In this document: one piece after another, positions 1 to 8,274 of the stretch | How positions within the stretch are numbered: position 1 is the stretch's first letter | Layout: the number at the start of each line of letters is the position of its first letter | DNA from: a virus | UHGV virus genome: UHGV-1341087 | Direction: 5' to 3' (one strand) | Length of the DNA: 8,274 nt | The notes under the pieces: model-generated | Told to the model about the DNA's origin: nothing | Seen by the model: the letters and a program-made list of their open reading frames with translations, nothing else | Database searches by the model: none | Made by a program: the position numbers and the translations under genes

Positions 1-53
1 GCACCGTCATGGGGTGTCGGGGGTCGGAGGTTCAAATCCTCTCGTGCCGACCA
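1..53 (+). tRNA. proL: tRNA-Pro (anticodon GGG likely), 3' partial; the 5' ~24 nt lie upstream of the window
   Basis: T-arm GGAGG-TTCAAAT-CCTCT, acceptor 3' strand CGTGCCG, discriminator A and CCA end at 51-53; a GGG triplet sits in the apparent anticodon loop (11-13). From memory this matches the enterobacterial proL sequence; not verified by search. Confidence 0.78.
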
Positions 54-88
54 AATCGCTCATTATTAATTATCGTTTTTATGAAATA

Positions 89-259: not shown

Positions 260-1504
260 ATGGCAAGAAAGGCGACCCCACTCACCACCACACAGATCAA
301 AGCAGCTAAACCAGCGGAAAAAGAATACACCTTACAGGATGGCGGCGGGCTTTTTCTCGTTATTAAGCCGTCTGGTTCGAAACTATGGCGATTCAACTAC
401 TATCGACCATCGAACAAAAAACGAACAATCATTAGTTTGGGATCGCTTGATGAAGTCTCCCTGGCTGATGCCAGAAAACGCCGTAGCGAGTACAGGACGT
501 TAATTGCGGCAGGAACCGACCCGCAGGAATACGAACGGCAAAAACTCGAAGCAGAGGCTCGACGACAGGGCAACACGTTCGAAAATGTGGCCGCATCGTG
601 GTACGAAATGAAAAAAAACCAGAATCTCGCCCACAATACGATCAAGGACATCTGGCGCTCGCTAGAGAAATATGTATTCCCGTATATCGGAAACACACCG
701 ATAGATACTCTCACCGCTCGCCGCTTTGTTGAGATACTCACACCCATCAAGGCGCGTGGCAACCTGGAAACACTGAAACGCGTTTTACAGCGCATCAATG
801 AAGTGATGGATTTTGCTGCCAACAGTGGACTGATTGACATCAACACCGCCGCGAACGTCCGCAAGGCATTCCCTTCCCCCACCAAAAAGCACATGCCAAC
901 TATTCGACCAGAGCAGTTGCCGCAACTTATGAACGATTTAACGATTGCCAGCATAGAACGACAAACCAAGTTGTTGATTGAGTGGCAGTTGTTAACCGCA
1001 ACCCGTCCAGCCGAAGCCTCCGCCGCACGGTGGGAAGAAATCAATCTTGAGGCGGCAACATGGACGATACCAGCCGGACGCATGAAGATGCGCCGTGACC
1101 ATGTGATCCCTCTTTGCACTCAGGCGATGGCAGTGCTTGAAGCCATGAAGCCGATTAGCGCACGAAGGGAGCATGTTTTCCCAAGTCTTAAAAATCCAGT
1201 GCAACCAATGAGCAGCCAGACAGCAAACGCAGCATTACGGCGAATGGGTTACGCTGGTGTGCTGGTATCTCACGGACTACGCGCAATATTCAGCACGGCG
1301 GCGAATGAGGAAGGATTTGAGCCTGACGTGATCGAAGCCGCACTAGCCCACGTAGACACAAACGAAGTTAGACGGGCATACAACCGAAGCAACTACCTGG
1401 AAAAACGTAAAGTGTTAATGTGCTGGTGGGGGAATTTTGTGGAAGCAGCCGCAACCGGAACAACCATCGCCAGCGGGCACAGGGGATTACGCGGAATAAA
1501 ATAA
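260..1504 (+). CDS. int: Tyrosine site-specific integrase, P4-type (N-terminal arm-binding domain plus catalytic domain)
   Basis: 414-aa ORF beside the tRNA 3' end. N-terminus (LTTTQIKAAKP..YTLQDGGGLFLVIKPSGSKLWRFNYY) is typical of P4-family integrases; C-terminus carries HGLRAIFST and RRAYNRSNYLEKR, consistent with the His/Arg/Tyr catalytic residues. Confidence 0.95.
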   Translation: MARKATPLTTTQIKAAKPAEKEYTLQDGGGLFLVIKPSGSKLWRFNYYRPSNKKRTIISLGSLDEVSLADARKRRSEYRTLIAAGTDPQEYERQKLEAEARRQGNTFENVAASWYEMKKNQNLAHNTIKDIWRSLEKYVFPYIGNTPIDTLTARRFVEILTPIKARGNLETLKRVLQRINEVMDFAANSGLIDINTAANVRKAFPSPTKKHMPTIRPEQLPQLMNDLTIASIERQTKLLIEWQLLTATRPAEASAARWEEINLEAATWTIPAGRMKMRRDHVIPLCTQAMAVLEAMKPISARREHVFPSLKNPVQPMSSQTANAALRRMGYAGVLVSHGLRAIFSTAANEEGFEPDVIEAALAHVDTNEVRRAYNRSNYLEKRKVLMCWWGNFVEAAATGTTIASGHRGLRGIK

Positions 1505-2119: not shown

Positions 2120-2413
2120 CTAATCGCACTTCCGTTTTAAACGGAAACGTACAATCGCATAGCTTAAACGACAAAAGAAATATGCTTGTTACAAATAAAA
2201 TAAAGGCGACCGCAGAGGGCCGCCAGAGGACATGTATTAAACTTGAACGCATCGCTAACAATGCCACATTTGCGGCTGGTGGGCAAAGTAATTTGTATGG
2301 TGGACATACCATCAACACATCCGACCACATGAGCCGGAAAACGGGATATACTCACCGAATCCCTTATAAAACGGGGATCGGGATTACCACCCCGCTGAAG
2401 CAAAAGGCGATAC

Positions 2414-2436
2414 AGACGCGCCACGCGTCTTTTTTT
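2414..2436 (+). terminator. Strong rho-independent terminator inside the alpA-to-replication-operon leader
   Basis: Perfect 7-bp GC-rich stem AGACGCG (2414-2420) / CGCGTCT (2424-2430), loop CCA, then a run of T (2431-2436). Confidence 0.6.
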
Positions 2437-2600
2437 GTATCGACGCACACGCACACCTTATCAATGGTGGGCTGTATGGGGCTGACTTCGGTCAGGCTGG
2501 TTTCCTTTTGCGCCAGTTGTGGTAACCCTGTACAGTCCACCGCCAGCGAGCTTACCACCTCCTGCGGTGGGTATATCCCAACGCAAAAGGAGGCTGCCAA

Positions 2601-2789
2601 ATGGCTACTATCCCTGCCCTCGCACATACTCAGAACGCCTTTATCTGGCGCTTTATCATCGTTAATCCGAGTGATTCCCGCGTCGTTCACGTCGTGGCGT
2701 CAACCGAGCAGGAAGCGCGTAACCGTTGCCCGTCCGGCTGTGTTGCTGTATTCGCTGCCCGTATTCGTCAGGGGGTAAGTCATGCTTAA
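2601..2789 (+). CDS. Icd-like small protein (host cell division inhibitor Icd-like family, tentative)
   Basis: 62-aa ORF with a strong AAGGAGG RBS (2587-2593). The segment RVVHVVASTEQEARNRCPSGCVAVFAARIRQG resembles Icd-like proteins found in P4-like regions (from memory). Its stop overlaps the next ORF's start (ATGCTTAA). Confidence 0.65.
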   Translation: MATIPALAHTQNAFIWRFIIVNPSDSRVVHVVASTEQEARNRCPSGCVAVFAARIRQGVSHA

Positions 2790-2996: not shown

Positions 2997-3284
2997 ATGA
3001 AAGTAAAAAATTCTGGCTTTACTGCCAGCGGTAAAACTCGTCCTAAATTCATGCACGGCGATATTTACCGCGATAAATACGGCAGCACGGTAATGATTAA
3101 GGGCGTGAGTGAACGACGCATTACCTACCGCCGTGAAGGATACAAATATGACTGCGTGATGCCTGTTTATCAGTTCCAGCGTGATTTTACGCTGGTGGAT
3201 CATCGTGAAACCGTAAATCAGAACCGTGCAGCAAGATACATCCGCAAAATCCGCGAAATGATGGTTACTGGGGGCAAGAAATGA
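2997..3284 (+). CDS. Hypothetical basic protein, translationally coupled to the primase/helicase gene
   Basis: 95-aa ORF; its TGA stop overlaps the downstream ATG (ATGA at 3281-3284); weak RBS, so the exact start is uncertain (alternative ATGs at 3049 and 3093). Confidence 0.55.
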   Translation: MKVKNSGFTASGKTRPKFMHGDIYRDKYGSTVMIKGVSERRITYRREGYKYDCVMPVYQFQRDFTLVDHRETVNQNRAARYIRKIREMMVTGGKK

Positions 3285-5416
3285 AACGCGCACCGAACTT
3301 AAAGCACCAGCCAGCCGACAAAATGACGGAGGTTATCATTTTTGCGGGTAGTGATGCGTGGAGCCATGCGAAAGAGTGGCAGGAATGGGCAGGTAAGCAT
3401 ATTGCCGCCGACAATGTGCCGCCTGTCGTTCTGTCAGATGAACACCTGAAAGATATTACCGGTTATCAGATTATTGATGATAGCCGTCAGTGTGTGCGTG
3501 TTTACCGCGCAGGGCACATCACTGAACGTAGCCTTACACAGATCGTCACATTGCTGGCTGTGGCTGGCGTGAAGACCGTATACGAATATGCGGGAATAAC
3601 TGACACCAGCCCGGCGGATTTATCCGACCAGTTGCCTCGCCTCAAAGACGAATACGAGCGCGGGGAAAGTCTGGTGTTGCCCTTAAAGAAAAAAATCACA
3701 GAAAGCCAGGGCGATGATGAATTAAAACCCCGCGTTGAAAGTCGCGCCGATGGTGTTTTCTGGGTAACGCCCAAAGTTGACAAACAGTCAGGCGAAATTA
3801 TCCGGCCTGAGACGTGGTTATGTTCCCCGCTTGAACTACTGGGAACGGGAACAATCGGTAAAGAGCATTACCGCGTGATGCGCTGGAAAAAACCGGCAAA
3901 CCATGAATCCATCACAATGGCGATCCCGTGTGGTGGCATTGGCGACCGTGACGGCTGGCGGTTGCTTAAAGATCACGGCCTGAACGTGACAACAAACGGC
4001 AAATACAGGGCTATCCTGGCTGACTGGATGCAGTTAAGCGGAAACCATGAGGAATGGCAGTTAAGCACAACAACGGGGTGGCATTTTGGCGCGTACATCA
4101 TGCCGGACGGTTCAGTCATTGGTGAGTCTGAAAAACCGATCCTGTTTACCGGAAAAACGGCAGCCGTTAATGGTTATTCCGTAGCAGGAACGGCGGAGGG
4201 CTGGCGCGATACCGTGGCGCGACTGGCTGGTGGTAATCCGTCCATGATGCTGGGTGTGGCGGTATCGTTATCAGCACCATTAATCGGGCTGGTGGGCGCT
4301 GACGGCTTCGGGGTACATCTTTTCGAACAATCATCAGCAGGGAAAACCACCACACAGAACATAGCATCAAGTTTATGGGGAGAGCCGGACGCGCAACGGC
4401 TGACCTGGTACGGAACGGCGTTAGGTATCGCCAACGAGGCAGAGGCACACAACGACGGGCTGTTACCCCTAGATGAAATAGGCCAAGCCGGAAACGCACG
4501 GGAGGTGTCCACGTCGGCTTATACGCTGTTTAACGGTTCGGGGAAATTACAGGGGGCGAAGGACGGCGGCAACAGGGAGATCAAACACTGGCGCACGGTG
4601 GCAATCAGCACCGGAGAAATGGACGTTGAGACATTCCTCAAAACGGAGGGGATAAAAGTCAAAGCGGGGCAGCTTGTCCGCCTGCTTAACGTGCCGATGG
4701 AGAAGTCTACGCAGTATCACGAATACAGCACAGGAAAGGCGCACGCAGACGCGTTAAAAGCCGCCTGGACAGAAAACCACGGGGCGGCGGGTCGTGAATG
4801 GGTTAAATGGCTGGCAGCCCACCAGCAGGAGGCTAAGGACACGGTAAGGGCGTGTCGTGAACGGTGGCGCAACCTGATACCGGAGTGCTACGGCGAACAG
4901 GTTCATCGCGTGGGGGAACGATTCGCCATACTGGAGGCCGCGCTTGTGCTGTCCGGTCATGTTACGGGCTGGAATGTTCAGACGTGCCGTGATGCCATTC
5001 AGCATAACTTTAATGCCTGGGTGAAGGAGTTCGGCACGGGTAACAAGGAACACAGGCAGATTATTGAACAGGCAGAAGCATTTCTTACTGCCTACGGCAT
5101 GAGCAGGTTTGCGCCTGTCAATTATGACCCTGCAAGCCTGCCGATTTCAGAACTGTACGGCTACAGGGAAAGCGAGGGGCGTTACGGTGAGCCTGTTTTG
5201 TTTTACGTCCTGCCGGAGCCATTTAAATCGCATGTGGCGAAGGGATTTAACAAGGATGCCGTAGCAAGAGCCCTTCACGAAGCCGGAATGCTGAAAAAGC
5301 CAGCCAGCGGGGAAGGATGGCAAATCAGAACACCACGTCTTAAGCACATGAAGGGGGCACGACTAAGGGTGTACGGCCTTTTACTTGCACAGGATCATGA
5401 TGATGAAGGTGGTTAA
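3281..5416 (+). CDS. Replication protein, primase/helicase-like P-loop NTPase (toprim-like N-terminus plus DUF927-type P-loop domain; functional analogue of P4 alpha)
   Basis: 711-aa ORF. Walker A GADGFGVHLFEQSSAGKTTT (about nt 4325-4354) and Walker B-like LLPLDEIG (about 4459-4482); N-terminal EVIIFAGSDAW...IIDDSRQ resembles a degenerate toprim fold. Domain names are from recall, not from a search. Confidence 0.88.
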   Translation: MKRAPNLKHQPADKMTEVIIFAGSDAWSHAKEWQEWAGKHIAADNVPPVVLSDEHLKDITGYQIIDDSRQCVRVYRAGHITERSLTQIVTLLAVAGVKTVYEYAGITDTSPADLSDQLPRLKDEYERGESLVLPLKKKITESQGDDELKPRVESRADGVFWVTPKVDKQSGEIIRPETWLCSPLELLGTGTIGKEHYRVMRWKKPANHESITMAIPCGGIGDRDGWRLLKDHGLNVTTNGKYRAILADWMQLSGNHEEWQLSTTTGWHFGAYIMPDGSVIGESEKPILFTGKTAAVNGYSVAGTAEGWRDTVARLAGGNPSMMLGVAVSLSAPLIGLVGADGFGVHLFEQSSAGKTTTQNIASSLWGEPDAQRLTWYGTALGIANEAEAHNDGLLPLDEIGQAGNAREVSTSAYTLFNGSGKLQGAKDGGNREIKHWRTVAISTGEMDVETFLKTEGIKVKAGQLVRLLNVPMEKSTQYHEYSTGKAHADALKAAWTENHGAAGREWVKWLAAHQQEAKDTVRACRERWRNLIPECYGEQVHRVGERFAILEAALVLSGHVTGWNVQTCRDAIQHNFNAWVKEFGTGNKEHRQIIEQAEAFLTAYGMSRFAPVNYDPASLPISELYGYRESEGRYGEPVLFYVLPEPFKSHVAKGFNKDAVARALHEAGMLKKPASGEGWQIRTPRLKHMKGARLRVYGLLLAQDHDDEGG

Positions 5417-5441: not shown

Positions 5442-5577
5442 CTTGTCCCACCTGTCCCAACCTGTGAAAAACACACATAACACACTGAATTATACTGGGT
5501 TACATCAGAAAAAGTGGGACAAGAGCGGGACAAGTTAAGGTGATTTTGGGACAAGTTAGGAGCATTTTGGGACAAGT
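5442..5577. repeat. Iteron-like array A: six copies of a TTGTCCCA(C) motif (2 direct, 4 inverted) around an AT-rich spacer
   Basis: cttgtcccac (5442-5451), ctgtcccaac (5452-5461); inverted gtgggacaag (5514-5523), cgggacaagt (5526-5535), tgggacaagt (5547-5556 and 5568-5577, 21 bp apart). Lies in the 235-bp gap between the primase and ssb genes. Confidence 0.6.
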
Positions 5578-5651: not shown

Positions 5652-6077
5652 ATGACGGCACAAATATCAGCTTACGGGCGGCTGGTGGCTGACCCGCAGT
5701 TAAAGACCACCAGCAAGGGAACACCAATGGCGCTGGTGAGTATGGCTGTTCCCCTTCCGTGCAGTCAGGCATATGACGGAACAGCGACGATGTGGTTATC
5801 CGTCCTGGCGTTTGGCAGACAGGCCGATGCGCTGGCAAAACACCAGAAAGGCGAACTGGTGAGCGTGGCGGGTAACATGCAGATAAGCCAGTGGACAGAC
5901 CAGAACGGGGAAATGCGACAGGGCTGGCAGGTCATCGCAGACAGCGTAATCAGTGCGCGAACCGTACGACCAGGAGGCAGGAAAGGACAGCAAGGGCAGG
6001 CTACTGACGCACTGAACAGGGCAAAGCAGCAGACGGGCCTGCAGGATGCCCCATATGAGGACGAAATACCATTTTAA
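5652..6077 (+). CDS. ssb: Single-stranded DNA-binding protein (SSB-like, short form)
   Basis: 141-aa ORF with an OB-fold-like N-terminal pattern (W..V..FG..A...KG..V...G....W.D..G..R) and a C-terminal acidic tail ending DAPYEDEIPF, matching the canonical SSB tail (...DDDIPF). Confidence 0.85.
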   Translation: MTAQISAYGRLVADPQLKTTSKGTPMALVSMAVPLPCSQAYDGTATMWLSVLAFGRQADALAKHQKGELVSVAGNMQISQWTDQNGEMRQGWQVIADSVISARTVRPGGRKGQQGQATDALNRAKQQTGLQDAPYEDEIPF

Positions 6078-6112
6078 CTGCCAGTGGATTCACTAACAGA
6101 GGCTAACAAATA

Positions 6113-6649
6113 ATGACTACACTGACTATTAGCAGAAAACCGAAAGGCATTTACGGCATACCACAGAAAAAGACACAGACGACACAGCAGCAGGATAAAA
6201 CCACATCAGCGCATAAAGTGATACCCGGCAATCAGAACGCACCGCAGAGCCGCAAACAGAAGCCCACAGGGGCGACACCGTGGCGGCATATGACCAAACG
6301 CCAGGGCAAAAACCGCAGGCGCGTTAACCGTCTTATTGAACTATGGCCTGAATTATTCAGCCTGGAATCACCGAAGCCGCTTAAGGTAGGGATATTTGAA
6401 GACCTGATACAGGATATTGCCGTCAGGGCGCTGGCTTTTGGGTCAGGGGCATTACGTGCGGCGCTAGCATCTTATGCTCATTCTCCGGGTTATTACCGTG
6501 CCTTAATGGCTGGTGGCGTGCGTTACGATCTGAATTGCCAGCCATGCGGTGAGGTGACACAACAGGAACAGCAGGACGCGGAAGCACGACTGATGGCACT
6601 GAAAGAGAAGCGCAAACGTAAGTCGAACAAGGAACAAGCTGGCGTATGA
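6113..6649 (+). CDS. FinO/ProQ-domain RNA chaperone-like protein
   Basis: 178-aa ORF with a K/R/Q-rich N-terminal extension followed by RVNRLIELWPELFSLESPKPLKVGIFEDL...YRALMAGGVRYDLNCQPCGEVTQQE, closely resembling the ProQ/FinO domain (compare ProQ ...KPLKIGIFQDL... RVDLDGNPCGEL...). Confidence 0.85.
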   Translation: MTTLTISRKPKGIYGIPQKKTQTTQQQDKTTSAHKVIPGNQNAPQSRKQKPTGATPWRHMTKRQGKNRRRVNRLIELWPELFSLESPKPLKVGIFEDLIQDIAVRALAFGSGALRAALASYAHSPGYYRALMAGGVRYDLNCQPCGEVTQQEQQDAEARLMALKEKRKRKSNKEQAGV

Positions 6650-6930
6650 GTATGATTCACGACAGTAAAGCGGAAGATCTGGAGGCTAAAGGCCTGTACC
6701 GGAGAGCGGCGACCCGATGGGCTGAGATCATGCAACAGGTGAACACCGATAAGGAGCGCGAACAGGCAGTAAAGCGTCGCGCGGAATGTATCCACAAGGC
6801 AGCACGTTCGCCCGTCATGCTGGATAATTTCGGGGGCTTGAGAGAGGCAGCAAACCGCACACAGGCGGATATGGGGATAGAAATCGCAAAATCTGTCTGG
6901 CGGAACTACCAGACAGACAAAGTTTTATAG
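6646..6930 (+). CDS. PerC-family-like small transcriptional regulator (tentative)
   Basis: 94-aa ORF whose start overlaps the finO-like stop (ATGA). The motif AEDLEAKGLYRRAATRWAEIM recalls PerC/Pch-type activators common in enterobacterial prophages; family assignment from memory only. Confidence 0.6.
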   Translation: MSMIHDSKAEDLEAKGLYRRAATRWAEIMQQVNTDKEREQAVKRRAECIHKAARSPVMLDNFGGLREAANRTQADMGIEIAKSVWRNYQTDKVL

Positions 6931-7241: not shown

Positions 7242-7463
7242 CCGAAATGATCCCCCAAAAAGTGCAAAATGATCCCCCATTAACGAACAGAAAACAAACA
7301 AAGAGCAACAAATAAGCATTATTTACAATTCTTGACAAAAACACCCCCTATTTATAACCCTACCAAATTTAAAATTACATATACAAAACAATAAGTTACA
7401 AAATCAGCAACGGATCATTTCGGAAAAAACGGTTAGTCCCTTTTTCGAAAAGGGATCATTTTG
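7242..7463. repeat. Four GATC-containing 13-mer repeats (2 direct, 2 inverted) flanking a ~130-bp AT-rich tract; candidate origin/unwinding element or methylation-sensitive control region
   Basis: aaatgatccccca exact at 7245-7257 and 7267-7279; inverted partners cggatcatttcgg (7411-7423) and gggatcattttg (7452-7463); GATC at 7249, 7271, 7413 and 7454; near-palindrome tccctttttcgaaaaggga (7437-7455). Confidence 0.5.
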
Positions 7464-7727
7464 TTGCTTAAACTCATATGCGGATTACATATCAATACGC
7501 TAGTGATAGCCGTTCTGGAATGCCACAGAAACGCGCTGTAATCGATTCTGGCGCAATTAGCTGTGCTAGGTAATGATTTACCTATCTGGGGATGTTGCGC
7601 ACGTCTGGATTGCGTTACCACCGAAGATTGTGCGCGTATGGTGGCTGTTACGGTGGCCTCCCGACAACGCAAAATTGCGGCGGCACAGTCGGTTTACCGC
7701 GCTAACACGGCTTGATTCACTCGCTCG

Positions 7728-7853
7728 ACTTGTCCCACCTCCCCCCAACTTGTCCCAAAACAGCCTAGACTTGTCCCACCTTACCTAATTTATTTCTAAC
7801 AAAATCAATTTGTTAGGTGCTAGCGGGACAGGTGGGACGGGTGGGACGGGTGG
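7728..7853. repeat. Iteron-like array B: three direct ACTTGTCCCA copies at ~21-bp spacing, AT-rich spacer, then three inverted GGGAC(A/G)GGT copies at 9-bp periodicity
   Basis: acttgtccca at 7728-7737, 7748-7757 and 7769-7778; gggacaggt / gggacgggt / gggacgggt within 7825-7851. Same core motif and same direct-then-inverted polarity as array A. Confidence 0.6.
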
Positions 7854-8126
7854 TTTTGTATATATATACGAAAAATTGCATTCAGGAGGGGGGCGAAATT
7901 CCTGCAATCCATTACTTATGGAACTGTCCGCCCCGTCAAATTTTTACGCCCGCGCAATTAAAAAAATGCGTCACGCAGGTGGGCATGATGCCGATATGCT
8001 TGTCGGGTTCAGCTTTTTAAGGCGGCTGTAGATGTCAGGTTATCCGTGCTCATCCACCAGCCAGCTTCATAGCGGATAGCCGGAAAATGGTAACGGTTAA
8101 AGCTGTACATTTTTGCAGCAAATCAT

Positions 8127-8150: not shown

Positions 8151-8226
8151 ATTTCAAAACTCAATCAATCTACATCTTTAAAATCATGCAGTTACAGAAT
8201 CAATTAAACTACTCTCGTGGAAAAAA

Positions 8227-8250
8227 CCAACCCTTACGGTTGGTTTTTTT
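8227..8250. terminator. Rho-independent terminator, possibly bidirectional
   Basis: A-run (8221-8226), stem CCAACC (8227-8232) / GGTTGG (8238-8243), loop CTTAC, then a T-run (8244-8250). Confidence 0.5.
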
Positions 8251-8274
8251 ATATCTGCAATTAATTCGATAAAC

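What the first reader, a model, noticed from the sequence alone, without database searches (positions are those of the whole stretch)
6113..6649. FinO/ProQ-domain RNA chaperone encoded inside a satellite-like integrative element
The ORF has an unmistakable ProQ/FinO-type core (KPLKVGIFEDL ... GGVRYDLNCQPCGEVTQQE) behind a ~60-residue Lys/Arg/Gln-rich, probably disordered N-terminus. FinO-domain proteins are best known from conjugative plasmids (FinO with FinP RNA) and chromosomes (ProQ). Finding one between a dedicated SSB and a PerC-like regulator, downstream of a primase gene and near a structured leader RNA, suggests an element-encoded RNA chaperone that could stabilise or present a regulatory RNA of the element, or manipulate host sRNA networks. 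I have not seen this described as a feature of P4-like satellites, though I cannot exclude that it has been.
Basis: partly seen in the sequence, partly recalled or inferred. Interest (0 to 1): 0.7.

Follow-up and report, generated by a model that had tools for sequence, protein, structure and literature searches.

The report
FinO-type RNA-binding gene in phage satellite
The ORF is a genuine, intact FinO/ProQ-family RNA-binding protein carried by a small phage-satellite island of E. coli; similar genes sit in about a fifth of E. coli genomes, always at the tail of the island's replication operon next to a PerC regulator, and their RNA targets are still unknown.

Summary
Observation confirmed. 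ORF 6113-6649 (178 aa) hits Pfam ProQ/FinO (E=1.4e-23). Its AlphaFold model matches FinO, RocC and NMB1681, and the residues of the 3'-nucleotide pocket and N-cap are kept. The basic N-terminal ~60 residues are predicted to be disordered.

The window holds a whole ~8.2 kb island at tRNA-Pro (proL). Its order is int, alpA, isrK-like/C4 immunity RNAs, icd-like, DUF4222, DUF927 primase, iterons, SSB, FinO, PerC. This is the layout of a Gram-negative PICI-type satellite, not of P4.

Homologues occur in 1091 of 5426 complete E. coli genomes, all on chromosomes. In about 95 loci the gene always follows the primase/SSB. It is usually translationally coupled to PerC and sits just before the early-operon terminator. 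The model PICI EcCICFT073 lacks it: [PerC-FinO] replaces [PerC] as a cassette, so it is accessory.

It cannot be the general ligand, and I found no universal cis antisense RNA.

Best reading: an accessory binder of terminator-type 3' ends that tunes satellite transcripts after induction. The target is unproven. RefSeq already annotates the gene and two 2026 papers mention such genes in passing. New member of a known kind; moderate interest.

The parts
1..55 (+). 3' part of tRNA-Pro (proL) with the attL core; left end of the island
   Evidence: Window 1-55 is 100% identical to K-12 proL; RefSeq annotates tRNA-Pro here
260..1504 (+). P4-type tyrosine integrase
   Evidence: Pfam Arm-DNA-bind_3, Phage_int_M and Phage_integrase; NCBIfam PRK09692 at 552 bits
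1764..1955 (+). AlpA-family regulator/excisionase
   Evidence: Pfam Phage_AlpA E=2e-6, 28 bits against a cut-off of 21
2359..2435 (+). isrK-like leader RNA (seqA/a1b1-type target of the C4 RNA), ending in an intrinsic terminator at 2414-2430 plus a U-run
   Evidence: Rfam RF01394 at 55.1 bits against a gathering score of 50; terminator scans
2460..2547 (+). C4/CI-type antisense immunity RNA
   Evidence: Rfam RF01695 at 78.3 bits, E=1.6e-14
2601..2789 (+). Icd-like small protein, first gene of the rightward early operon
   Evidence: RefSeq annotation; PHROG hits
2997..3284 (+). DUF4222 protein; its stop overlaps the primase start. Conserved hairpin CTGGC-N6-GCCAG at 3013-3028
   Evidence: Pfam DUF4222 E=2e-24; hairpin perfect in 38 of 40 unique sequences
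3281..5416 (+). DUF927 primase/helicase-type replication protein
   Evidence: Pfam DUF927 E=3e-46
5442..5577 (.). Iteron cluster (GGGACAAG units) directly 3' of the primase; putative ori
   Evidence: Repeat families D1, D10, I1-I4; motif map; this is the layout described for GN-PICI origins (PMC6092414)
5652..6077 (+). SSB with a C-terminal EDEIPF tip
   Evidence: Pfam SSB E=2e-16; TIGR00621 at 61.8 bits
6113..6292 (+). FinO-like protein, residues 1-60: basic Lys/Arg/Gln-rich extension predicted to be disordered
   Evidence: pLDDT below 50 for residues 11-57; sequence nevertheless conserved across the family
6293..6649 (+). FinO-like protein, residues 61-178: FinO/ProQ domain plus a C-terminal basic helix. 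Key residues K91, G93, D97, R115, Y127 (6491-6493), R137 (6521-6523), D139
   Evidence: Pfam PF04352 E=1.4e-23; PDB profile alignments; Foldseek; invariant columns
6646..6930 (+). PerC-family regulator, tightly coupled to FinO (ATG 6646 overlaps the stop TGA 6647-6649; the RefSeq start ATG 6652 lies 2 nt after it)
   Evidence: Pfam PerC E=1.1e-32; junction sequences
7436..7465 (+). First terminator-like hairpin downstream of the FinO-PerC pair in this island (weak, -8.8 kcal/mol)
7718..8078 (.). Second iteron cluster (7718-7852), AT-rich block (7853-7880) and a right-end element conserved among many islands
8211..8219 (+). attR core (CTCTCGTG, a repeat of the tRNA 3' end); K-12 flank resumes at 8220

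Best explanation
The ORF encodes a functional FinO/ProQ-domain RNA-binding protein of a distinct, island-borne clade. It is carried by a minimal (~8.2 kb) AlpA/primase-type phage satellite (Gram-negative PICI layout) integrated at proL. It is not a core life-cycle gene. It belongs to an exchangeable accessory cassette with a PerC-family regulator at the very end of the rightward early (replication) operon. It is therefore made together with the primase, SSB and PerC when the island is de-repressed.

Mechanism. Shown: the fold and the conserved 3'-nucleotide pocket and N-cap. Inferred: the domain clamps a hairpin followed by a single-stranded pyrimidine tail with a free 3'-OH, that is an intrinsic-terminator 3' end. 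Also inferred: the basic disordered N-terminus and C-terminal helix supply extra RNA contacts or annealing activity, as in FinO.

Most likely role (inferred): post-transcriptional tuning of the satellite's own transcripts after induction. In most islands the nearest ligand is the early-operon 3' terminator, which lies 2-100 nt after the cassette. In this island, which lacks that terminator, the candidates are the isrK-like attenuated leader (3' end about 2436) and the 7436-7465 terminator. The expected effect is to adjust the stability or pairing of these RNAs, and so the output of PerC and the replication genes.
For: - **Identity:** Pfam E=1.4e-23; PDB profile hits to ProQ, FinO and RocC; confident AF2 core; Foldseek hits only FinO-fold structures.
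- **Binding residues:** the equivalents of RocC Gly52, Arg75, Tyr87 and Arg97 (G93, R115, Y127, R137) are invariant or nearly so in 20 diverse homologues. These residues bind the terminal nucleotide and the hairpin in the RocC-RNA structure (PMC9674577).
- **Maintained gene:** more than 115 clusters; 1559 places in 1091 of 5426 complete E. coli genomes, all chromosomal.
- **Fixed position:** in about 95 loci it follows SSB or the primase, whichever of two unrelated primase families is present.
- **Coupling:** its stop overlaps the PerC start in 56 of 93 loci. In the others it is coupled to another small ORF or follows PerC.
- **Operon tail:** 59 of 70 distinct downstream contexts have a strong intrinsic terminator right after the cassette, 47 of them within 100 nt. 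The GCCGG-type stems vary with compensatory changes.
- **Accessory status:** an EcCICFT073-like island carries [PerC-FinO] (1026 bp) where EcCICFT073 has [PerC] (281 bp), with flanks 83-94% identical. EcCICFT073 is fully inducible and transferable (PMC6092414).
- **Expression:** no sigma-70-like promoter is predicted directly upstream of SSB or FinO, consistent with co-transcription.
Against: - No RNA ligand has been shown; everything about the target is inference.
- The early-operon terminator is also present in FinO-less EcCICFT073, so it is not FinO-specific.
- That terminator is absent from this window's island.
- Synonymous-site analysis of the gene shows no embedded RNA element.
- FinO sequences are fairly uniform (mostly 70% identity or more) while the other island modules vary. 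This fits a common host or helper target equally well.
- All characterised element-borne FinO proteins use a cis-antisense RNA, and I found none here.
Confidence: 0.42

Rival explanations
1. Trans-acting regulator aimed outside the satellite. The protein, delivered together with PerC, would bind terminator-bearing RNAs of the host, the helper phage or co-resident plasmids. It could act as a ProQ competitor or mimic lacking the Tudor domain, or as a surrogate FinO for F-like plasmids, rewiring their expression to the satellite's benefit.
For: - It is in a cassette with PerC, whose relatives act on host virulence loci (EcCIMP1 PerC silences LEE; PMC11773190).
- The EHEC ProQ paper PMC12426089, citing a separate EPEC study, says that PerC modulates ProQ's effect on ler in EPEC.
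- Accessory, swappable status.
- FinO sequences are conserved across islands with unrelated primases, integrases and immunity regions, as expected for a shared external target.
- Minimal FinO domains such as NMB1681 bind many RNAs (PMC7272453 abstract).
Against: - There is no evidence of expression in the integrated state; the gene sits in an operon that in this island lies behind a C4-type immunity leader.
- Only 33% identity to plasmid FinO.
- No target can be named.
Confidence: 0.25
2. Replication (copy-number) control in the manner of FopA or PcnR. The protein would chaperone a cis-antisense RNA against the 5' end of the translationally coupled DUF4222-primase mRNA.
For: - Precedent: FinO, FopA and PcnR all work with antisense RNAs that control transfer or rep genes (PMC9977716; PMC7491321; PMC8053102, title and abstract).
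- The gene lies in the replication module next to the ori.
- The hairpin CTGGC-N6-GCCAG sits 16 nt after the DUF4222 start. It is perfect in 38 of 40 unique sequences, with five different loops; stems are 99% identical against 75% for the next 30 nt.
- On the minus strand this hairpin is followed by a T-run over the start codon, which is terminator-like (3028..3013).
Against: - No conserved antisense promoter; the best matches are 8 of 12 and present in only some islands.
- The stem is only 5 bp.
- The hairpin is equally present in FinO-less EcCICFT073.
- Its conservation could instead reflect the peptide SGFTAS or a DNA site.
- FinO occurs with two unrelated primase families.
Confidence: 0.12
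3. One reading: a dedicated chaperone for the island's structured leader, promoting pairing of the C4 immunity RNA (2460-2547) with its isrK-like target (2346-2435).
For: - Both RNAs are real.
- The leader ends in a textbook terminator with a U7 tail.
- Loop-loop pairing of structured RNAs is what FinO assists in FinP/traJ (PMC9977716).
Against: - A covariance model of C4 finds it in only 7 of 74 FinO-bearing loci scanned; Rfam gathering-threshold scans agree.
- To my knowledge P4 and P1 C4/CI systems work without such a protein, and P4 has no FinO homologue.
- The gene lies downstream of the attenuator it would control, so it is not made while immunity holds.
Confidence: 0.1
4. A decaying passenger gene with no current function.
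For: The island in the window is minimal (no packaging genes) and carries relics, for example the orphan minus-strand terminator at 2197-2224.
Against: - Intact ORF with the functional residues invariant.
- Present in more than 1000 genomes at a fixed position with translational coupling.
Confidence: 0.03

Closest known systems
FinO of F-like conjugative plasmids (PDB 1dvo)
   Same: Same fold (best Foldseek hit). Same overall build: basic N-terminal extension, core, C-terminal helix. Encoded by a mobile element at the distal end of a long operon. About 33% identity in the domain.
   Different: Scores 67.6 bits against the NCBIfam FinO cut-off of 136. Never on plasmids in E. coli complete genomes. 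No tra genes and no FinP/traJ-like antisense pair found. The N-terminal region is unrelated in sequence.
ProQ (chromosomal global RNA-binding protein; PDB 5nb9)
   Same: Best sequence-profile match to the N-terminal FinO domain (E=5e-20). The equivalents of K35, G37, D41, R58, Y70, R80 and D82 are conserved.
   Different: No linker or C-terminal Tudor-like domain. 58 bits against the equivalog cut-off of 127. Island-borne and present in only about 20% of strains.
FopA (pCol1B9) and PcnR (IncI2): plasmid FinO-domain proteins that control copy number through antisense RNA
   Same: Element-encoded FinO domain with its own basic N-terminal extension. Associated with a replication module.
   Different: Only 31% identity over 83 residues to FopA. 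No Inc-like antisense RNA identified. The host element is a phage satellite, not a plasmid.
Minimal FinO-domain proteins (N. meningitidis NMB1681, L. pneumophila Lpp1663, RocC domain)
   Same: Single FinO domain with short extensions. Structural matches with TM (target-normalised) 0.62-0.83.
   Different: Those are chromosomal, not satellite-borne. Here there is a 60-residue conserved N-terminal extension.
Gram-negative PICIs such as EcCICFT073 (the element, not the protein)
   Same: Same gene order: int-alpA-...-icd-like-DUF4222-primase-iterons-SSB-PerC, all rightward. Iterons lie 3' of the primase as described (PMC6092414). Some FinO-bearing relatives carry the EcCICFT073 capsid and decoration genes, or a full cf-PICI capsid module.
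   Different: EcCICFT073 has no FinO gene. This island has no packaging or capsid genes. It has a P4/P1-type C4 immunity leader in place of the leftward YlcI/h57 genes.
Satellite phage P4
   Same: P4-type integrase at a tRNA gene. CI/C4-type RNA immunity with an isrK/seqA-like target. Two iteron clusters resembling ori and crr.
   Different: No psu, delta or sid. A different primase family. P4 has no FinO-domain gene.

Membership tests
FinO/ProQ domain family (Pfam PF04352) | Significant match to the family HMM above the curated cut-off | tested here: met
   83.3 bits against a cut-off of 27, E=1.4e-23, near full-length domain
FinO/ProQ domain family (Pfam PF04352) | FinO fold (alpha-helical core with a beta-hairpin) | tested here: met
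   AF2 core pLDDT 88-97. Foldseek: 1dvo, 3mw6, 7rgt, 7rgu and 6s10 at E<=8e-5; the next hit has E>2
FinO/ProQ domain family (Pfam PF04352) | Conserved 3'-nucleotide pocket (Tyr, Arg, beta-turn Gly) and N-cap Arg | tested here: met
   Y127, R137, G93 and R115 align to RocC Tyr87, Arg97, Gly52 and Arg75 (ProQ Y70, R80, G37, R58) and are invariant or nearly so
FinO/ProQ domain family (Pfam PF04352) | Binds hairpin plus 3'-tail RNAs | not testable with these tools
   Needs EMSA, three-hybrid or CLIP
FinO sensu stricto (fertility inhibition) | NCBIfam PRK13754 cut-off; location in a tra operon of a conjugative plasmid; FinP/traJ partner | tested here: not met
   67.6 bits against 136; chromosomal island; 0 of 1559 E. 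coli places on plasmids; no tra genes in the window
ProQ sensu stricto | NCBIfam equivalog cut-off and a C-terminal Tudor-like domain | tested here: not met
   58.3 bits against 127; the protein ends at residue 178 after the C-terminal helix
FopA branch | Close similarity to pCol1B9 FopA, including its N-terminal domain | tested here: not met
   31% identity over 83 residues, domain only; N-termini unrelated
Gram-negative PICI (the element) | int, alpA and a primase/rep gene, all transcribed rightward | tested here: met
   same order as EcCICFT073
Gram-negative PICI (the element) | Iteron-type ori immediately 3' of the replication gene | tested here: met
   GGGACAAG repeats at 5442-5577; criterion from PMC6092414
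Gram-negative PICI (the element) | Packaging, interference or capsid-morphogenesis genes, or a helper cos/pac site | tested here: not met
   No such ORF in the window. No lambda cosN beyond chance. Relatives do carry capsid modules
Gram-negative PICI (the element) | Helper-phage-dependent induction and transfer | not testable with these tools
   Needs experiments
P4-like satellite (the element) | psu-delta-sid capsid-hijack module and an alpha-type primase | tested here: not met
   No matching ORFs. Only the integrase type and the C4 RNA immunity resemble P4

The most novel reading that the evidence does not exclude
FinO-PerC is a two-tier takeover cassette of phage satellites. PerC acts on transcription. 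The FinO-domain protein acts on the terminator 3' ends of RNAs from the host, the helper phage or co-resident plasmids (a ProQ competitor or a trans-acting FinO surrogate). On this reading about a fifth of E. coli strains carry one to nine extra, inducible global RNA-binding proteins that have never been profiled.
Probability: 0.25. Interest if true: 0.7.

Novelty: new member of a known kind. Interest (0 to 1): 0.45.

Why it matters
FinO-domain proteins form one of the three major families of bacterial sRNA-binding proteins. So far only plasmid-borne members (FinO, FopA, PcnR) and chromosomal members (ProQ, RocC, NMB1681) have been studied. This work shows a distinct clade that is:

- common (1091 of 5426 complete E. 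coli genomes, up to 9 copies per genome);
- confined to phage-satellite islands;
- kept in a fixed place, at the tail of the early replication operon and translationally coupled to a PerC regulator;
- exchanged as a cassette.

That gives a concrete experiment: compare natural FinO-plus and FinO-minus versions of the model PICI EcCICFT073. Satellite biology would learn what the cassette adds to induction, replication, transfer or helper interference. RNA biology would learn how another FinO domain picks its targets in a cell that already has ProQ and often FinO. It also bears on virulence regulation, because PerC relatives control the LEE island.

Tried and rejected
- **C4/isrK leader as the general partner: rejected.** Rfam scans of 11 related loci and my own C4 covariance model over 75 loci find it in only 7.
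- **Embedded antisense or structured RNA inside the FinO gene: no signal.** A minus-strand hairpin at 6264-6283 recurs in homologues. Synonymous-site identity there (0.90-0.92) barely exceeds the gene average of 0.83. I treat it as a coding constraint.
- **Antisense RNA over the DUF4222 start: unresolved.** The hairpin is conserved, but no conserved promoter was found and it is also present in a FinO-less island.
- **Minus-strand terminator 2197-2224 as the 3' end of a partner sRNA: rejected.** It is the relic 3' end of the leftward h57/YlcI operon of related islands.
- **Conserved right-end element 7853-8078 as a structured RNA: not supported.** RNAalifold gives -5 kcal/mol and no supporting covariation term. 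It looks more like an ori/DUE-adjacent DNA element.
- **Lambda cos site in the window:** nothing beyond chance.
- **Species-representative genome scan:** only 2 loci, so I used IMG/VR and exact-protein look-ups instead.
- **One wrong coordinate guess for EcCICFT073** returned a lambdoid prophage instead.
- **Phage phiSG1 context of a distant FinO homologue:** uninformative.
- **FopA membership:** rejected.
Full report
**1.

It is preceded by AGAGG at 6098-6102.

- Pfam gives ProQ/FinO (PF04352) at E=1.4e-23, 83 bits against a cut-off of 27. The match covers residues 69-171 and nearly the whole profile.
- A profile of 20 homologues hits the solved structures of ProQ (5nb9, 5e-20), FinO (1dvo, 1e-17), RocC (7rgt/7rgu), Lpp1663 and NMB1681.
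- An AlphaFold2 model is confident for residues ~61-170 (pLDDT 88-97) and unstructured for residues 11-57 (pLDDT below 50).
- Its 26 significant Foldseek PDB matches are all FinO-fold proteins; the next hit has E>2.

The RocC-terminator crystal structure shows that Gly52, Arg75, Tyr87 and Arg97 bind the terminal 3'-OH nucleotide and the hairpin backbone (PMC9674577). The equivalent residues here are G93, R115, Y127 and R137 (ProQ G37, R58, Y70, R80). They are invariant or nearly so in the family alignment.

The domain call and the 'disordered basic N-terminus' are therefore correct. The N-terminal 60 residues are well conserved despite the predicted disorder.

**2. What the element is**

Comparison with the empty K-12 site shows where the island sits:

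- Window 1-55 is the 3' part of proL (tRNA-Pro).
- Window 8220-8274 is the K-12 sequence downstream of proL.
- A short repeat of the tRNA end (CTCTCGTG) lies at 8211-8218.

The window therefore contains one complete ~8.2 kb island between yejM/proL and yejO. All genes are on the + strand:

| Feature | Coordinates |
|---|---|
| P4-type integrase | 260-1504 |
| AlpA | 1764-1955 |
| isrK-like RNA (55 bits) | 2359-2435 |
| C4 antisense RNA (78 bits) | 2460-2547 |
| icd-like | 2601-2789 |
| small ORF | 2782-2967 |
| DUF4222 | 2997-3284 |
| DUF927 primase/helicase | 3281-5416 |
| iterons | 5442-5577 |
| SSB | 5652-6077 |
| FinO-like | 6113-6649 |
| PerC | 6646-6930 |
| right arm with a second iteron cluster | 7718-7852 (iterons) |

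(Protein assignments; repeats.)

There are no capsid, terminase, psu, delta or sid genes. The order is that of Gram-negative PICIs. The model element EcCICFT073 reads int-alpA-(YlcI, h57 leftward)-icd-like-...-DUF4222-primase-h85-SSB-PerC-capsid-decoration. Iterons directly 3' of the replication gene are the ori layout described for these elements (PMC6092414). Only the immunity leader is P4/P1-like. C4 and isrK Rfam hits in some GN-PICIs have been noted before (PMC10111431).

**3. Distribution and context**

*Distribution*
- The protein search returned 115 clusters from Escherichia, Shigella, Salmonella and Citrobacter.
- At the DNA level, 1091 of 5426 complete E. coli genomes hold a homologue. 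That is 1559 places, up to 9 per genome, and none on plasmids.
- A DUF4222/primase-junction probe finds 2717 places in 1928 genomes. Roughly half of such islands would then carry the gene. This is a rough figure: DUF4222 also occurs in prophages and blastn sensitivity differs between the two probes.
- The exact 8.2 kb island is in 53 genomes.

*Position.* I mapped reference proteins onto about 95 loci. The gene always lies after the replication genes:
- directly after SSB in 44 loci;
- after a D5-type primase in 32;
- after PerC in 5;
- after another replication-module gene (DUF4222, DUF927 primase or h85) in the remaining 8.

It occurs with two unrelated primase families (DUF927 or D5_N/DUF5906), with at least five integrase types, and with or without AntA/Bro genes.

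*Coupling and the operon tail*
- In 56 of 93 loci its stop overlaps the PerC start (ATGA).
- In 12 it overlaps a 138-aa ORF that is followed by a PerC-like gene.
- In about 20 loci, which are capsid-forming PICIs with HK97 capsid, protease and portal, it overlaps an 82-aa ORF.
- In 59 of 70 distinct downstream contexts a strong intrinsic terminator follows the cassette, within 100 nt in 47. The stems are GCCGG-type and differ by compensatory changes.

FinO and its small partner are therefore the last genes of the early operon.

**4. It is accessory**

EcCICFT073 is induced, replicates and transfers at high frequency (PMC6092414), and it has no FinO gene. An EcCICFT073-like island (L098) is 83-94% identical on both sides. 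It carries PerC-FinO (1026 bp) where EcCICFT073 has PerC alone (281 bp). Homology resumes 25 nt after the FinO stop, at the shared terminator.

**5. Search for the RNA partner**

Rfam finds it only in the window, L010 and L012 among 12 sources scanned (the window plus 11 loci). A covariance model built from five copies finds it in 7 of the 74 FinO-bearing sources scanned; the 75th source, FinO-less EcCICFT073, also has none. It cannot be the family's ligand. The gene also lies downstream of the attenuator, so it is not made while immunity holds.
- *(b) Antisense RNA within the gene.* A minus-strand hairpin at 6264-6283 recurs in homologues, but synonymous-site conservation is not distinctive.
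- *(c) Antisense RNA at the replication genes.* The hairpin CTGGC-N6-GCCAG, 16 nt into DUF4222, is almost invariant (38 of 40 unique sequences, five loop variants, stems 99% against 75% for the next 30 nt). On the minus strand it is followed by a T-run over the start codon. However, no conserved antisense promoter was found, and the hairpin is also in FinO-less EcCICFT073.
- *(d) The minus-strand terminator at 2197-2224.* It is a relic of the leftward YlcI/h57 operon of related islands.
- *(e) The conserved right-end element 7853-8078.* It adjoins the second iteron cluster and an AT-rich block. It gives no convincing consensus RNA fold and looks like origin DNA.
- *(f) The early-operon terminator.* It is the only terminator-type 3' end that is both general and adjacent. 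It also exists without FinO and is missing from this particular island. Here the first terminator-like hairpin after PerC is the weak one at 7436-7465.

**6. Mechanism**

*Shown:* a maintained FinO-domain protein with an intact pocket for a terminal 3'-OH nucleotide and an N-cap for the hairpin. It is placed and coupled so that it is made with PerC at the tail of the early operon. It is dispensable for the basic PICI cycle.

*Inferred:* it binds hairpin plus U-tail 3' ends, and its basic extensions add affinity or annealing activity, as in FinO.

| Reading | Probability |
|---|---|
| Tunes the satellite's own transcripts after induction (own operon 3' end in most islands; in this one the attenuated leader ending near 2436 or the 7436-7465 terminator) | about 0.4 |
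| Acts on host, helper or plasmid RNAs | about 0.25 |
| Antisense-based replication control | about 0.12 |
| A dead gene | about 0.03 |

The trans reading is favoured by the PerC partnership and by the uniformity of FinO across otherwise mosaic islands.

**7. Comparison with known families**

It is a member of PF04352 by sequence, fold and pocket residues. It is not any of the named subfamilies:

- Not FinO: 67.6 bits against a cut-off of 136, never on plasmids, no tra genes or FinP.
- Not ProQ: 58.3 bits against 127, no Tudor domain.
- Not FopA: 31% identity over 83 residues.

Four PHROG families match it, all labelled 'unknown function'. Only six phage records hold distant homologues.

**8. 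Novelty**

- RefSeq already labels the gene 'ProQ/FINO family protein'.
- A 2017 survey listed a pathogen-specific proQ/FINO cluster (PMC5571608).
- The 2023 family review notes phage- and island-associated members in general terms (PMC9977716).
- Two 2026 papers list ProQ/FinO-like genes among accessory genes of Enterobacter PICIs and Vibrio episomal satellites (PMC13612085; PMC13230959).
- I found no paper that studies function, the conserved position, the coupling to PerC or the cassette exchange.

I therefore rate it as a new member of a known kind, of moderate interest, with a clear experimental route.

Noticed in passing
window 3013-3028 (within DUF4222, 2997-3284): Hairpin CTGGC-N6-GCCAG, 16 nt after the DUF4222 start codon. 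It is perfect in 38 of 40 unique sequences from about 85 islands, with five loop variants. Three synonymous sites in the stem never vary. On the minus strand it is followed by a T-run over the start codon (terminator-like). It is also present in FinO-less EcCICFT073. It could be an mRNA element, an antisense terminator or a DNA site controlling the coupled DUF4222-primase pair.
   Followed up: partly
window 5442-5577 and 7718-7880: Two clusters of GGGACAAG-type iterons. One is directly 3' of the primase. The other is 2.2 kb away, next to an AT-rich block (GTTTTGTATATATATACGAAAAATT). SSB, FinO and PerC lie between them, an arrangement resembling P4 ori/crr. Iteron sequences differ between islands, while the AT-rich block is shared.
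   Followed up: partly
window 7853-8078; e.g. L002 19905-20278, L034 15318-15367: An element of about 150-220 nt at the right end is conserved (73-92% identity) among islands with different integrases and cargo, including capsid-forming PICIs. It was not detected in EcCICFT073. RNAalifold gives no convincing structure. Its function (origin, packaging signal or remnant gene) is unknown.
   Followed up: partly
window 2329-2562: RefSeq annotates a partial 'ash family protein' pseudogene here. It lies on top of the isrK-like and C4 RNA hits, so it is probably RNA genes read as a CDS.
   Followed up: no
window 2197-2292 (minus strand): Orphan intrinsic terminator GGCGGCC-CTCTGC-GGTCGCC-TTTATTTT plus about 70 nt. 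It is homologous to the 3' end of the leftward h57/YlcI operon of related islands (motif in 35 of 77 loci). In this island the genes themselves have been replaced by the C4/isrK leader, which marks a recombination junction near 2292.
   Followed up: yes
L034 8001-12057 and similar loci (L032-L042, L056, L060-L064): FinO-like genes also occur in capsid-forming PICIs. There the gene is followed by an overlapping 82-aa ORF, a terminator, then HK97-type capsid, prohead protease and portal genes.
   Followed up: partly
L002-L009, about 11.5-18.9 kb: In the most widespread variant (protein P0056, indexed in 4005 collection blocks) the FinO cassette is followed by three very large ORFs (about 600-920 aa) with no Pfam hits. 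They may be a defence system or other cargo.
   Followed up: no
window 7332-7465: A TTGACA-15 nt-TATAAC promoter-like site at 7332-7358 followed by the hairpin and T-run at 7436-7465 could define an sRNA of about 95 nt. The region is found only in this island and its E. albertii twin (L010).
   Followed up: no
L002, L005, L007, L009, L011, L012 (between int and alpA): The Rfam int-alpA RNA motif (RF02996, 47-50 bits) is present in several FinO-bearing islands but not in the window's island.
   Followed up: no
window 6056-6077: The island SSB keeps the C-terminal acidic tip (…YEDEIPF). This resembles the canonical DDDIPF tip, which as far as I know recruits host replication and repair proteins.
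   Followed up: no
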